A DNA stretch of 64,000 nt from Anolis carolinensis (lineage: Eukaryota): the NCBI RefSeq assembly GCF_035594765.1, contig NC_085844.1, forward strand, positions 193,828,107-193,892,106, read 5' to 3'. The stretch's first letter is position 1. Each line of letters begins with the position of its first letter. The position numbers were made by a program, and so were the translations under genes. A model generated the notes under the pieces. That model was not told the DNA's origin and ran no database searches. It saw only the letters and a program-made list of their open reading frames with translations. Shown piece by piece: positions 3,195 to 60,560 of this stretch.

Positions 3195-4345
3195 TTGCTT
3201 ATGCGTTCCCTCATAGTTCGAGGATGATTGTCTTCCACCTTGGGGGTGTGTCCGTAGATGGCTGAAGAGACCTATTCTTGATCTGCATGTTCTCCCGCAG
3301 TGAGGACATCGGTTTCCAGGTGGAAGGCGGTCCCGATCAGGGTTGGCTTGCGCTCCTTCCTCTTGGCACGTTTCTCCCTTAAGCCCTCCATTCGTGCCTC
3401 TTCGAACTCCGCAGCACTGCTGGTCACAGCTGACCTCCAATTAGAGCACTCAAGGGTCAGGGCTTCCCAGTTCTCAGTGTCTATGCCACAGTTTTTAAGG
3501 TTGGCTTTAAGTCCATCTTTAAATCTCTTTTCCTGCCCACCAACATTATGTTTCCCGTTCTTGAGTTCGGAGTAGAGTAGCTGCTTTGGGAGACGGTGAT
3601 CGGGCATTCGGACAACGTGGCCAATCCAGCGGAGTTGATGGCGTAGGAGCATCGTTTCAATGCTGGTGGTCTTTGCTTCTTCCAGCATGCTGACATTTGT
3701 CCGCCTGTCTTCTCAAGAGATTTGCAGGATTTTTCTGAGGCAACGCTGATGGAAACGCTCCAGGAGTTGAGTGTGATGTCTGTAGACCGTCCACGTTTCG
3801 CAGGCGTAGAGCAGGGTTGGGAGGACAATGGCTTTATAAACAAGCACTTTAGTATCTCTACGGATGTCCCAATCATCAAACACTCTCTGCTTCATTCTGA
3901 AAAATGCTGCGCTTGCAGAGCTCAGGCGGTGTTGTATTTCAATGTCAATGTTGACTTTTGTAGAGAGGTGGCTGCCAAGGTAGCGGAAATGCTCAATATT
4001 TTCTAATGTTACACCATTAAGGTGTATTCCTGGCATTGCAGAGGGATTAGCTGGTGCCTATTGGAAGAGCACTTTAGTTTTCTCAATGTTCAATGAGAGG
4101 CTGAGCTTCTCGTATGCTTCTGTGAAGGTGTTTAGAGTGGCTTGTAGATCTACTTTTGAGTGCGCACAGACTACGTTGTCATCGGCATATTGGAGTTCTA
4201 TAACAGATGTTGTGGTGACCTTGGTTTTGGCTCTTAGTCTGCTGAGATTAAATAGCTTGCCATCTGTCCGATAGATGATTTCCACACCAGTGGGAAGCTT
4301 CCCATCAACAAGGTGAAGTATCATAGCGATGAAGATAGAAAATTA
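3195..4345 (-). mobile_element. RTE-clade LINE, 5'-truncated (RT C-terminal half), disrupted
   Basis: ORFs 4058..4324 (ELQYADD), 3713..4036 (FRYLGS, LLYACETW), 3272..3688 (QLRWIGHVVRM...PKQLLYSEL) and a CPHCGRTC zinc-finger tail; in NUDT3 intron 4. Confidence 0.92.
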
Positions 4346-48637: not shown

Positions 48638-48841
<204 letters not shown>

Positions 48842-56720: not shown

Positions 56721-57123
56721 AGCACATGGCTATTGCAAAACAAACACGCCCAACAATAAATTTCCATGTTTGTTTTTGGGCATGATTAGAGCATTTTAAG
56801 ACATGCTTTTTCTGAGGAACCATACTAAATGTGCCAAACAACTAATAGGCAGTAGTAGTTGTGGAGGGTGACACTGGCAGAGGATCTCTCAAAGACAGCA
56901 GCAGTGGTATCATAGCTAACAATCATTAGTAGCATAAAAGAAGACATTGTAAACTACTTTTGAATGTGTTTTACTATGAAAACCCCATGAAATCCATAAT
57001 GAACCTTGGAGTAGTGCTAGAAGATGAAACTCACACGTTGCATGGCATTCAAGGACCTACTGGGATAATAGCAGAGGACAACTACTAGCACTATATTGGC
57101 TAATGACAGGACTCAAGGAGAAA

Positions 57124-57990
57124 TGTGATGACTTATGGGCCATGTAGTCCCGTTCCTAGTACTGTTGTGACAGATGAAGAGGAAAACTTGGGTTTCCCAC
57201 CGTTTTTGCCAGATTTGGAGCCCTTGCAGCTGCAGGATGTTTGCCCACAAGAAGTCACACAAACAAGCCTTGAGGAGAAATCTCCCCCATTTTCTCGCCG
57301 CCTTTATTATAATCAAGATAGACACGCGCGGGAGGCGACTCGCCGAAGCGCCCGGATAGCTGCCAGACAATTAGATGATTAAGTCTGATTCCCTTGGGAA
57401 AGTTTAAGGAGTCCTGCATCTGGACAGTTTAGGTTTCGGTTCTTGTTCCCCAGAGAAAGTCTGCTTTGGTGGGAAAACAAGATCCTATATAGATGCTTGG
57501 CCACAAGGATTCCTTGCGGAGTCAATTCGTCAGCTTCGGGAGTAGATTGTGTGTGGACTACGCAACTCCAGTTTCCAGGACCTTGCTCTCGTTCCAGCCC
57601 TGCCTTGTTCCCCGGACCTCGCCACGGATTTTGCCACGGACCCTGTTCTTGCTCCTCGCTTCTTGTTGCCTTGAATCAAGCCTTGTTTGCCAAGAATCTA
57701 GTTTGCTTCCTAGCCTTGCATTAAGCTCCATGGACTAAAGGACCTTGTCATCTCCCCTCACTTTGCTTGGCAAAGTGAGTGTTTCGGTTATTGGATTACA
57801 ACTTTGGACCTTAATATTTCATATTGGACATTGGTTTCTTGGACTAATTTTGACCTTTCCTGAAAGGTCTACTTCTGAACTATTTCCTACACTTGCTTTT
57901 ATTAACTTTATATATTTCCTCAATAAAGATATTAGATAGATTCTGGCCTCTGTGTATGGTTATTGGTGCTCTGCAGCCTGGGTCCTGACA
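57124..57990 (+). mobile_element. Solo LTR (867 bp), probably Gypsy-type
   Basis: tgtgatg...ctgaca ends, 5-bp TSD agaaa (57119-57123 and 57991-57995), TATA-like ctatata at 57485, AATAAA at 57922. Confidence 0.9.
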
Positions 57991-57995
57991 AGAAA

Positions 57996-58740
57996 GGACA
58001 TTCAACTGTTGATGGGCTCAGATGTGAAAGAAAATCTGAAGCTGTACAACATATATTATAGGAACATAGAGTGAGAAAGACATGAATCAGGAGAAGCTAG
58101 AGCTATTAAAGCAAGAAATGAAATGCAGAAACATTGTAATGTGAATGAGCCAAGGTGGGAAGGAATGGGGCATTTTGAGTCAGATAATTATACAGTGTTT
58201 TACTCTGGAAATGAAAATCTAAAAAGAAATGGGTGGCAGCAAAAACAGTCAAAATATATCATGTAAAATTTTATTGAATCATATCAATAATATTTCTGTA
58301 AAAAACTATCAATATTATCATTATCAATGCTTATGCTCAACTACAGAGGCAAAAGTAAGAACAATTGAAAAGTTCTCTGCTGGAGTCCAAGATGAAATTG
58401 TTCATATATCAAAATGAGAGTTCTTGTTAAACATAGGTGATTGGAATGCAAATGTAAGAAACATTTGACCTAGGATAAATAAAGCAGGAGGGTAAAATAC
58501 TGAATTTTCTGAAGCCAACAGGATGTTCATTGCAAACACATTCTTCAAGCAATTGTATATATGAACATCACCTGAAGACCAACAGAGAAATCAAAAATCA
58601 TAATTCAAAGCAGATGATGGAGAAGCTCCATTCTGTCTGCAAAAACTAGACCAGGAGCATATTGTGGCACAAAACATGAACTACTAAGAAAAAATCAAGT
58701 AAAGCTAATGGAATCGAAAGATACTATAAAAAGGAGATTT
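57996..58740 (+). mobile_element. Degenerate BovB-type APE endonuclease region; its 5' part (~56880-57118) is separated by the LTR
   Basis: IIGT.., MNQ.KLE, GMGHFESDNYTVFYSGNE, IGDWNA and FIANTFFKQ remnants. Confidence 0.75.
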
Positions 58741-58789
58741 ATACAATTAAGCATACCTGATTGAAGCAAGGAACATGTTTTTTAAAAAA

Positions 58790-60560
58790 TAAATTTTATT
58801 GCAAACATTTATAGACAATGCGGTTTACAATGAGATGACAAAGATTTGAGAGTGACGATAAGTAAATACATAAAAACAAAACCGTACAGCTCACCCAACC
58901 AACCAATTACAGGACCTGAGCAGAGAGAGGGGAAGTAATAGAAGGAAAGAGAGAGAGGGAGAGAGAGGGAGAGAGAGAGAGAAGAAAAGAAAAAAAATCT
59001 ATACTAGAAATAAACATGAATCGAATCCAACAAACAACTTTACATAGTTACACATCTTTCAAATCGACTTCCATCTATTATGTGGTGTTTCTTATAATAT
59101 TCCCTTGGTACTCCCAGTACCCATATCTCCTATCTTGTGTCTGCATCTGTTCTTTATTCTGAGACAATTCTATTGCCCTTCTTACTCATCTGATATTTCT
59201 TTATATTACAACTTTGCATTTCTCATTTTTTAAATAATTTTTATTAATTCCCAATCTGTTTGCTTTTTTGGTTTGCCCTGAGTGTTTGATAATAAGTATG
59301 TTAATTTATCCATATTCATAATTTCCAGACTTTTATTAAACCAAGAATTTATGTCAGATCTGTTTTTCGTCCTCCATTCTTTTGCGTATGTCATTCTCGC
59401 CGCCGTCGTTAGATAATTAAACAAAATTTCTTTGTTCCAATCTTCTAAGCTAGCATCCCTAAGAGGAAGAATTTGGGGTCTAGGTTAATCTTAATTGACT
59501 TTTTTTTGTGTTCTTTGTTGTATTTCTTTCCAACATTCTTTGACTCTCTCACAGGTCCACCAGCAATAGAAGTAGGTGCCTTCATGCTCCCCACACTTCC
59601 AACATTTGTTGGAGGTTTTTTTTTTTGTAGAATTTAGATAGTTTTGGGGGAGTTAAGTACCATCTATGGAAAGTTTTTATCCAATTTTCTTTAAGATCTG
59701 CCGAATACGTGTATTTTAGTCTTTGATTCCAACATTTCTCCCACTCCTCTATTCTGATTGGTTTCCCTATATTTTTTGCCCATTTGACCATACACTCTTT
59801 GATGAAATCTTGTTCTGTTGCCCACTCTAATAATTTTTTGTAAACTTTAGTTATGATTTTAGATTCTGATTGTGTTACTTTGTCCCAAAAGGTTTCTTTG
59901 TCTTCAAATCCTATTTTCTTGTCTTTATTAAAATGATCCTTAATCTGTGCATACTGAAACCACCCTATGTTTTTAAATTCTTGATTTATCTTTTCCTGTG
60001 TTTTTAGTTTGTAATTTCCCTTCTCCTTAATTAGAATATCTTTGTATTTTGGCCACATTGTCCCTCCCATTTCTCTTCTTTGACAGGCCTCTAGGGGGGA
60101 TATCCATAGAGGAGTTTTTGTGAATAAATTTCCCATGTGTTTTTCCCATATTTTTTATTAGGGATGAATAAATGAAATGATCTCCAAAATTTTTGTCTAT
60201 TCTCCTTTTCTCATACCACAAGTAGGCATGCCAGCCAACTCGTAAGTCTACCCCCTCTAATGTCAATCCACATTAAGCAGCAGGCCTCATGGTATAATTG
60301 TAATTTTGGTAGAGCTAGTCCGCCTCTTTTTTTTTTTTCATCGATCATAGAAGTTCTTTTATCGGTTTTTTGTTTGACCAAATAAATTTGTTTATATCTT
60401 TATTCCATTTTTTTAATCTTTGTGTGTTTCTAATTATCGGAATACATTGGAAAAGGAAAAGCATCTTGGGTAAGATTGTCATTTTGACTGCTGCCACTCT
60501 CCCCAATAGTGATAATTTAAGTTCGTTCCAATTTTCTAGATCTTTCTGAATATCTTTCCA
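58790..60560 (-). mobile_element. L1-clade LINE ORF2 3' portion and 3'UTR
   Basis: [26 protein letters not shown] near 60440-60520, ORFs 60027..60266, 59582..60136 and 59230..59424 (TAARMTYAKEW), AATAAA near 58795. Confidence 0.88.

What the first reader, a model, noticed from the sequence alone, without database searches (positions are those of the whole stretch)
57128..57382. Second LTR copy of the U3 ORF (MTYGP...EEENLGFPP...RRSARIAARQLDD)
Seen: an 84-aa ORF from the ATG at LTR base 5. RRSARIAA matches the HMGN core RRSARLSA at 6 of 8 positions. This is an independent insertion (TSD agaaa, inside a BovB-like remnant). Its 3' block aataaagatattagat...ggcctc.gtgt matches the 33657-33690 block of the other LTR, linking the two as one lineage. 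Inference: protein-level similarity with little visible DNA similarity in U3 suggests coding constraint.
Basis: partly seen in the sequence, partly recalled or inferred. Interest (0 to 1): 0.7.

Follow-up and report, generated by a model that had tools for sequence, protein, structure and literature searches.

The report
Integrase tail hidden in lizard LTR
The short reading frame is not a gene of its own but the end of a lizard retrotransposon's integrase, which runs on into the terminal repeat and ends in a motif almost identical to ones that other proteins use to grip nucleosomes, a possible and untested targeting hook.

Summary
In detail: an 84-aa ORF starts at base 5 of a solo LTR (57124-57990, TSD AGAAA) and is homologous to the 91-aa ORF of the LTR at 32835-33727 (score 86; 0 of 5000 shuffles). 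It is not a stand-alone U3 gene. In 34 of 36 complete homologues, from Anolis carolinensis protein clusters, it is the last 84-96 residues of a Ty3/Gypsy chromovirus integrase, after the chromodomain and a PPT-like GDSV junction. Pol therefore reads into the 3' LTR, as in plant CRM elements, and a solo LTR keeps the orphaned tail. Contigs of two studies show the empty site, so this copy is probably young, not domesticated. The tail varies fast (identity 0.68 vs 0.96 for the integrase core), but RRSxR[I/L] is kept in 30 of 34 distinct tails and in both LTRs, where all five shared residues use different codons. RRSARIAA matches yeast Dot5 RRSARIAT at 7 of 8, a motif reported to bind the nucleosome acidic patch. 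Best reading: an LTR-encoded integrase tail under protein-level selection (about 0.9) that probably tethers integrase to nucleosomes (about 0.4, untested). New variant of a known kind.

The parts
57124..57990 (+). Solo LTR (867 bp, TG...CA) of a high-copy Ty3/Gypsy chromovirus family
   Evidence: Termini and flanks; no internal pol match in the window beyond the tail; summed contig depth jumps by 3-5 orders of magnitude at both ends in the runs that cover the flanks
57119..57123 (+). Left target-site duplication AGAAA
   Evidence: empty-site joint 57118 to 57991 skips 872 = 867 + 5 bases with 5 ambiguous letters
57991..57995 (+). Right target-site duplication AGAAA
57128..57382 (+). 84-codon frame = orphaned C-terminal tail of the integrase (Pol read-through into the 3' LTR)
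   Evidence: 64-65% identical over its whole length to the last ~90 aa of P0002/P0003; 71 of 84 to P0018; P0041 carries RT-RNaseH-IN-chromodomain and the tail in one chain
57173..57196 (+). Conserved acidic-aromatic block DEEENLGF (residues 16-23); resembles but does not match the FxGF motif
   Evidence: mean pairwise identity 0.90 among Anolis tails; E, L, G, F shared with the other LTR
57341..57364 (+). RRSARIAA (residues 72-79), HMGN/Dsup/Dot5-like candidate acidic-patch anchor
   Evidence: identity 0.89 against 0.45 and 0.44 on either side; all 5 residues shared with the other LTR use different codons; PMC13347269, PMC12487698
57779..57961 (+). Non-coding 3' block shared by the two LTRs, with AATAAA at 57922-57927 (likely polyadenylation signal, inferred)
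   Evidence: 72% over 193 bp to 33513-33696
32835..33727 (+). Second, divergent solo LTR (893 bp, TSD GAAAT at 32830-32834 and 33728-33732)
32839..33114 (+). 91-codon homologous frame from LTR base 5, ending RRSVRLAE (33073-33096); fusion to an integrase inferred, not seen
   Evidence: best 30 identical residues to Anolis tails; no integrase of this subfamily retrieved
57996..58750 (+). Decayed LINE-like target sequence (RTE/BovB-like by recall), continuing left of the TSD
   Evidence: translation by eye; no fitting Pfam hit

Best explanation
The ORF is the last 84 residues of the Pol polyprotein of an anole Ty3/Gypsy chromovirus. SHOWN at protein level: in family members the chain runs RT - RNase H - integrase - SH3 - chromodomain - short linker - GLEEGDSV - this peptide. 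INFERRED: GLEEGD is the translated polypurine tract and S-V-M is the LTR start T|GTG|ATG, so Pol is translated through the PPT about 85-95 codons into U3 of the 3' LTR; reverse transcription copies U3 to both LTRs, and LTR-LTR recombination leaves a solo LTR with a frame that only looks like a gene. SHOWN: the tail is under protein-level selection across the family, concentrated on short motifs in an otherwise fast-changing, probably disordered chain. INFERRED (about 0.4): the terminal RRSxR[I/L]A is an HMGN-like arginine anchor that tethers the integrase or pre-integration complex to the H2A-H2B acidic patch, beside the chromodomain. This copy is a young, probably polymorphic insertion and most likely makes no protein itself. 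The confidence given is for the integrase-tail identity under selection; the tethering step is about 0.4.
For: 34 of 36 complete tails follow GDSV in integrase models; domain order in P0041/P0006; tblastn places the P0006 junction at window 57122-57130. Between the two LTRs pS 0.78 (saturated) vs pN 0.50, bootstrap interval of the difference 0.09-0.47; 16 of 26 identical residues use different codons, including R72, R73, S74, R76, A78. Tail lengths differ in frame (84/86/90/91/93/96). RRS.R[ILV] arises in 113 and 86 of 200000 shuffles of the two peptides, and 2 of its 3 hits in 127996 six-frame residues of the window are these ORFs. Dot5 RRSARIAT needs R6, R7, R10 to bind the acidic patch (PMC13347269, passages); HMGN2 RRSAR and Dsup RRSSR are the residues seen on the patch (PMC12487698, parts 1-2 of 5). 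An unrelated metagenomic chromovirus shows the same geometry in DNA, PPT then TGTCAC, with RRSSRL in a 21-aa read-through (L005). Plant CRM group A precedent (PMC3059260, passages). Empty-site contigs in 2 of 4 runs, filled junctions in 1.
Against: No full-length element DNA of this family was seen, so the PPT/LTR overlap is inferred from protein models. The other LTR's frame was not found fused to an integrase. The motif is not the most conserved stretch: residues 1-8 (0.945) and 16-23 (0.90) rank above it (0.89). The closest non-anole relatives, 3 Podarcis models and P0074, have long acidic extensions but no RRS.R; only 1 of 140 chromodomain-bearing representatives has it after the chromodomain. 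Position 4 is L in 15 of 34 tails and V in the other LTR, residues not among the tested binders (A, S). A single-sequence model makes residues 54-83 a helix, which I recall is not how such anchors usually bind. Codon-position asymmetry is mild (32/39/30 of 77) and a protein-guided alignment favours low pN. Copies are related by descent, so the counts are not independent.
Confidence: 0.88

Rival explanations
1. Same integrase tail, but the basic motif is a nuclear-import signal, a DNA/RNA-binding patch or a kinase site, and the HMGN likeness is convergence on a common arginine-rich pattern.
For: Short basic ends after the chromodomain are common among the 140 representatives. The predicted helix over 54-83 holds 8 K/R in 30 residues. 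Yeast Ty integrases carry C-terminal import signals (recalled).
Against: The exact spacing R-R-S-x-R-[I/L] is kept across synonymous saturation while neighbouring basic residues change freely; an import signal or DNA patch would tolerate K/R exchange, and none of the 34 tails has K at these positions.
Confidence: 0.4
2. A stand-alone accessory gene in U3 (as Nef or MMTV sag overlap the 3' LTR; recalled), translated from its own ATG on a subgenomic RNA or released from Pol by the protease.
For: The M at LTR base 5 is present in all tails counted (partly by how they were selected). Two Anolis gene models (P0001, P0030) carry the tail without integrase.
Against: The ATG is part of the terminal TGTGATG shared by both LTRs and also typical of plant CRM LTR ends (TGATG), so it needs no start-codon role. 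No stop separates it from integrase in 34 of 36 models. The two exceptions join it to unrelated host or LINE text.
Confidence: 0.07
3. Neutral read-through: Pol lost its stop, and the apparent conservation reflects cis-acting DNA (att site, promoter elements) in U3.
For: Short read-through past a PPT-like GG.V occurs in 14 of 140 representatives. The first residues overlap the LTR end. The lack of common indels in the ORF (0 in 255 bp vs 6 in 608 bp) is not significant, P about 0.12.
Against: All five shared motif residues use different codons in the two LTRs; pS exceeds pN; the ORF is the least DNA-conserved part of the LTR pair (62% vs 64-74%) yet the only frame pair with protein similarity. 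Two open frames of 83 and 90 codons have a joint chance of about 0.0003.
Confidence: 0.08
4. This solo LTR has been domesticated by the lizard as a small HMGN-like host gene.
For: The frame is intact, lies about 8 kb upstream of an RPS10 exon, and predicted exonisation exists elsewhere (P0001).
Against: The site is empty in contigs of two studies; the family is high-copy and the frame is intact in many copies; the ATG lies 4 bases from the LTR start, upstream of where an LTR promoter would start transcription (established LTR layout).
Confidence: 0.03

Closest known systems
[quoted passage not shown]
   Same: Ty3/Gypsy domain order, integrase with chromodomain, anole host. V-clade and Amn-ichi are named in PMC2774666 and PMC6317226 (passages).
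   Different: An 84-96-aa LTR-encoded tail with a conserved motif; most relatives stop within 30 residues of the chromodomain (102 of 140). Whether this family is Amn-ichi itself, and whether Piskurek et al. noted the overlap, is unknown: the paper is not held.
Plant CRM group A centromeric retrotransposons (CR motif / CHDCR) and beet Bingo elements
   Same: [quoted passage not shown]
   Different: CRM group A has the CR motif in place of a chromodomain; here the chromodomain is kept and the tail is added after it. Animal host. Similarity to the CR motif itself was not tested.
HMGN nucleosome-binding core RRSARLSA; Dsup RRSSRLTS; yeast Dot5 RRSARIAT
   Same: RRSxR core with the three arginines shown necessary in Dot5; 6 of 8 with HMGN, 7 of 8 with Dot5.
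   Different: No homology outside the motif (no Pfam or PDB hit); it sits at the end of an integrase; binding untested.
Retroviral acidic-patch tethers: foamy virus Gag CBS and MLV p12
   Same: A short arginine motif tethering the pre-integration complex to H2A-H2B (PMC9040877, PMC11054761, passages).
   Different: Those are Gag-derived; here the candidate anchor is on integrase and is encoded in the LTR.

Membership tests
Ty3/Gypsy chromovirus | LTR with TG...CA ends and short TSD | tested here: met
   both LTRs, 5-bp TSDs; empty-site joint
Ty3/Gypsy chromovirus | pol order PR-RT-RNaseH-IN | tested here: met
   in family proteins P0006 and P0041 (protease hits below Pfam cut-off); the window holds only solo LTRs
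Ty3/Gypsy chromovirus | chromodomain at the integrase C-terminus | tested here: met
   PF00385 above cut-off in P0002, P0003, P0006, P0041; aromatic F, W, F at the cage positions by eye (type I-like)
V-clade / Amn-ichi | RT phylogeny with named V-clade elements | tested here: inconclusive
   integrase tree (151 of 153 rows) groups the anole proteins with Rhineura, Podarcis and one unnamed protein at support 0.97, and weakly (0.49) with amphibian and fish elements; no named reference element was available
CRM group A | [quoted passage not shown] | tested here: met
   by protein models and the S-V-M / TGTGATG register; not seen in DNA of a full-length anole element
CRM group A | CR motif replaces the chromodomain | tested here: not met
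   chromodomain retained; so works like, but is not, a CRM element
HMGN protein family | invariant RRSARLSA and family-wide homology | tested here: not met
   6 of 8; no Pfam family at E up to 1; no PDB sequence hit at E up to 10
HMGN-like motif (Dsup, Dot5) | R-R-S-x-R core with arginines at positions 1, 2 and 5 | tested here: met
   both window ORFs and 30 of 34 distinct tails; definition
HMGN-like motif (Dsup, Dot5) | acidic-patch-dependent nucleosome binding | not testable with these tools
   needs a binding assay or structure
LEDGF IBD-binding FxGF motif | F-x-G-F in acidic context (10.1101/624023, passages) | tested here: not met
   anole tails have N-[LMF]-G-F; canonical FxGF is present in Podarcis and P0074 extensions
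Stand-alone U3 accessory gene | frame separate from pol | tested here: not met
   continuous with integrase in 34 of 36 models

The most novel reading that the evidence does not exclude
A vertebrate chromovirus lineage evolved, inside U3 of its 3' LTR, a motif-bearing integrase tail with an HMGN-type arginine anchor (and possibly a degenerate FxGF-type motif), giving a bivalent chromatin reader: chromodomain for a methylated tail plus acidic-patch anchor. LTR read-through would then be a recurring cradle for new targeting modules (plant CR motif, RRSSRL in L005, FxGF in Podarcis), and very many solo LTRs would carry an exonisable nucleosome-binding peptide.
Probability: 0.4. Interest if true: 0.7.

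Novelty: new variant of a known kind. Interest (0 to 1): 0.47.

Why it matters
How LTR retrotransposons choose integration sites is known for few elements, and the acidic-patch tethers I found described are Gag-derived or non-retroviral. An integrase-borne HMGN-like anchor would be a new solution, testable with a short peptide. It would also show an animal parallel to the plant CR motif, with coding and promoter information overlapping in U3. If the motif does nothing special, the result still explains an annotation trap: solo LTRs of this family carry an intact ORF that looks like a small gene.

Tried and rejected
Whole-genome search: no genome is held for this window, so no full-length element DNA and no family-wide dN/dS. 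Pfam on both ORFs and on the 81-aa ORF at 57493: nothing. PDB by sequence: nothing. ESM Atlas: no usable hit. Viral contigs with P0018: 11 pattern matches, none confirmed. Metagenome scan for the LTR start: 0. Profile of the two ORFs against longer proteins: the same 3 anole hits, none for the other LTR's subfamily. Expression: no RNA holder listed; two runs guessed as RNA were laid but contigs cannot show transcription. Complex prediction of residues 51-84 with a stand-in H2A/H2B-like pair from contig L001: no answer, score 0.02; PMC12487698 reports that AlphaFold 3 also fails on HMGN2 with the nucleosome. Indel depletion in the ORF: not significant. The bacterial promoter scan and tRNA scan were uninformative. 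Earlier findings of this scan: three look-ups returned nothing. Literature: searches for HMGN-like/RRSARLSA/acidic patch with retrotransposon or integrase, for vertebrate or anole chromoviruses listed no paper on this tail; subscription papers (Piskurek 2009, Gao 2008, Gorinsek 2004), Repbase/Dfam entries and supplements were not seen and may describe the overlap. Rejected: HMGN membership, CRM membership, canonical FxGF, cis-DNA explanation of the motif, domestication of this copy.

Full report
1. The observation. The window holds an ATG-initiated frame of 84 codons at 57128-57382. It starts at base 5 of an 867-bp element, 57124-57990, that begins TGTGATG, ends TGACA and is flanked by AGAAA on both sides. 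A second element, 32835-33727 (893 bp, TSD GAAAT), has a 91-codon frame from the same base. Neither has a PPT or internal sequence beside it, and family Pol proteins match the window only at the tail: both are solo LTRs. Their 3' parts align at 72% over 193 bp (E 1e-19). The peptides align with score 86, reached by 0 of 5000 shuffles (maximum 56); the other 17 frame pairs score 16-39. The BovB-like label of the flank rests on my recall of RTE endonucleases; Pfam did not confirm it.

2. What it is. A search among longer proteins gave 3 hits of 50 candidates, all Anolis carolinensis, 64-65% identical over the whole peptide. Two are Gypsy integrases in which the match is the last ~90 residues, after zinc finger, rve core, SH3 and chromodomain. 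I gathered 54 proteins from these and related anole clusters (two clusters were listed only in part, 15 of 33 and 15 of 17). Forty had the tail start by my pattern, 36 of them complete and 4 cut short; two more (P0038, P0061) end in the same motif but were missed by the pattern. In 34 of the 36 the tail follows GDSV of an integrase; in 2 it follows unrelated text. P0041 carries RT, RNase H, integrase, chromodomain and tail in one chain. The LTR's first seven bases read T|GTG|ATG, the end of S, then V, then M, which is the junction seen in these proteins; GLEEGD before it is what a polypurine tract encodes. So Pol is translated into the 3' LTR, and the 'start codon' is part of the LTR terminus. 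This overlap is inferred from protein models, since no genome was available. The closest tail is P0018, 71 of 84 identical. The window is therefore from A. carolinensis or a near relative (inferred).

3. Age of this copy. Contigs of four public runs were laid on 57060-58060. Summed depth rises by orders of magnitude exactly within the LTR, so the family is high-copy (no copy number can be read from it). Runs X1 and X9, of two studies, have a contig joining 57118 to 57991, skipping 872 bases (LTR plus one TSD); X2 has both filled junctions with no differences; X15 does not cover the left flank. The simplest reading is a polymorphic, recent insertion, though the flank is an old repeat and a paralogous empty form is not fully excluded. 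An intact frame here needs no selection by the host.

4. Constraint. Among 31 copies with integrase and tail, mean pairwise identity is 0.96 (core), 0.98 (SH3), 0.96 (chromodomain), 0.80 (linker) and 0.68 (tail). Within the tail three blocks stand out: residues 1-8 (0.945; overlapping the LTR end), 16-23 DEEENLGF (0.90) and 72-79 (0.89, against 0.45 and 0.44 on either side). Of 34 distinct tails, 16 have RRSARIAA, 12 RRSLRIAA, 2 RRSARITA, and 4 have one change each at R, R, S or R. Between the two window LTRs, 16 of 26 identical residues use different codons, including all five shared motif residues; pS is 0.78 (saturated) and pN 0.50, bootstrap interval of the difference 0.09-0.47. Against over-reading: identity by codon position is only mildly skewed (32, 39, 30 of 77), a protein-guided alignment lowers pN, 8 of the 12 listed family variants in the ORF are non-synonymous when taken singly, indel depletion is not significant (P about 0.12), and copies are related. 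The picture is a fast-changing, low-complexity chain that keeps its frame and a few short motifs. A single-sequence AlphaFold2 model gives no structure for 1-53 and a helix for 54-83, mean pLDDT 64.5.

5. Breadth. Of the best 150 representatives at 50% identity, 140 have a chromodomain; 102 end within 30 residues of it, 14 show a PPT-like junction, and none has a tail alignable with the anole one. An integrase tree (151 of 153 rows) groups the anole proteins with Rhineura, Podarcis and one unnamed protein (support 0.96-0.97). Podarcis and P0074 also have long acidic extensions passing a GG.DV/EG.DV junction, with FxGF but no RRS.R. One distant, unnamed element has RRSSRL in a 21-residue read-through, and its DNA shows a PPT followed by TGTCAC in the same frame (L005; in that of 77 loci were examined, and only L005 and possibly L015 run past such a site). 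The tail sequence is thus anole-specific so far, while the architecture is wider.

6. How it most likely works. Shown: the peptide is the integrase C-terminus in family gene models and is under protein-level selection. Inferred: in full-length elements it is made as part of Pol; U3 is copied to both LTRs, and recombination leaves solo LTRs with the orphan frame. Inferred at about 0.4: RRSxR[I/L]A anchors integrase on the H2A-H2B acidic patch. HMGN2 RRSAR and Dsup RRSSR are the residues seen on the patch by cryo-EM (PMC12487698, parts 1-2 of 5 read). Yeast Dot5 RRSARIAT, 7 of 8 identical to the window motif, loses nucleosome binding when R6, R7 or R10 is changed (PMC13347269, passages). Foamy virus Gag and MLV p12 tether pre-integration complexes in this way (PMC9040877, PMC11054761, PMC5072296, passages). 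The pattern RRS.R[ILV] occurs in about 5 of 10000 shuffles of either peptide, and 2 of its 3 six-frame hits in the window are these frames. The main rival, of about equal weight, is an import signal, nucleic-acid patch or kinase site. A separate accessory gene, neutral read-through and domestication are each unlikely for the reasons given under rivals.

7. Comparison with what is known. The element meets the tested chromovirus features; V-clade or Amn-ichi membership is likely but was not testable, and the Anolis paper by Piskurek and colleagues was seen only as a reference. Extension of gag-pol into the 3' LTR with a targeting domain is described for plant CRM group A and for beet Beetle and Bingo elements (PMC3059260, PMC3605345, PMC6317226, passages); there the CR motif replaces the chromodomain, here the tail is added to it. 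It is not an HMGN protein. Eight searches listed no paper on an HMGN-like motif in a retrotransposon integrase or on this tail; the library lacks most subscription papers and repeat databases, and no supplements were read.

8. Verdict. Observation confirmed; interpretation partly supported. The identity is fairly ordinary: the tail of a chromovirus integrase left in a young solo LTR. The conserved Dot5/HMGN-like motif at the end of an LTR-encoded integrase tail appears undescribed in what I could search and is cheap to test. New variant of a known kind; interest 0.47, rising to about 0.7 if patch binding is shown.

Noticed in passing
window 48668-48817 (-), 44107 (-), 28081-28182 (-): Host context: an RPS10 exon (Pfam S10_plectin) and a NUDT3-like first exon (recalled; no Pfam hit). 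The LTR at 32835 lies between the two genes and the LTR at 57124 about 8 kb upstream of the RPS10 start codon; both are on the strand opposite to the genes.
   Followed up: partly
proteins P0107, P0218, P0219 (Podarcis muralis) and P0074: The nearest relatives have long acidic extensions after the chromodomain with a canonical FxGF motif (3 of 3 Podarcis models; P0074), the consensus of LEDGF IBD partners: a possible LEDGF-type targeting motif in squamate chromovirus integrases.
   Followed up: partly
L005:1623-1709: Unnamed metagenomic chromovirus whose pol frame crosses a PPT and a TGTCAC LTR-like start and encodes RRSSRL, as in Dsup, in a 21-aa read-through. One element; its second LTR was not seen.
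   Followed up: partly
proteins P0001 and P0030: Anolis gene models in which the tail is joined to unrelated sequence, i.e. solo LTRs exonised or mis-annotated. P0012 (a whole integrase named calmodulin-lysine N-methyltransferase) and P0075 (integrase joined to TM9SF2 in Rhineura) look like similar artefacts or chimeras.
   Followed up: no
window 57118-57991: Empty-site contigs in runs X1 and X9, filled junctions in X2: probable presence/absence polymorphism. The right flank is itself repeated, so a paralogous origin of the empty form is not fully excluded.
   Followed up: partly
window 57128-57382: CpG observed/expected is 0.77 in the ORF and 0.39 in the rest of the LTR; two of the four motif-breaking variants in other copies (R to C, R to Q) look like CpG decay.
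   Followed up: no
L001:1359-2559: A 911-kb IMG/VR contig encodes an adjacent H2A-like and H2B-like pair that by eye keeps the acidic-patch residues.
   Followed up: no
window 3272-4324 (-), 29083-29370 (-), 31358-31990 (+), 37027-38193, 59582-60136 (-): Fragments of other retroelements (RTE-, CR1-, Penelope- and L1/Tx1-like by recall), an ordinary squamate repeat landscape.
   Followed up: no
protein P0031 (Xenopus tropicalis): 53-59 basic residues follow a PPT-like RGGTV junction, another possible read-through into the LTR, without the RRS.R motif.
   Followed up: no
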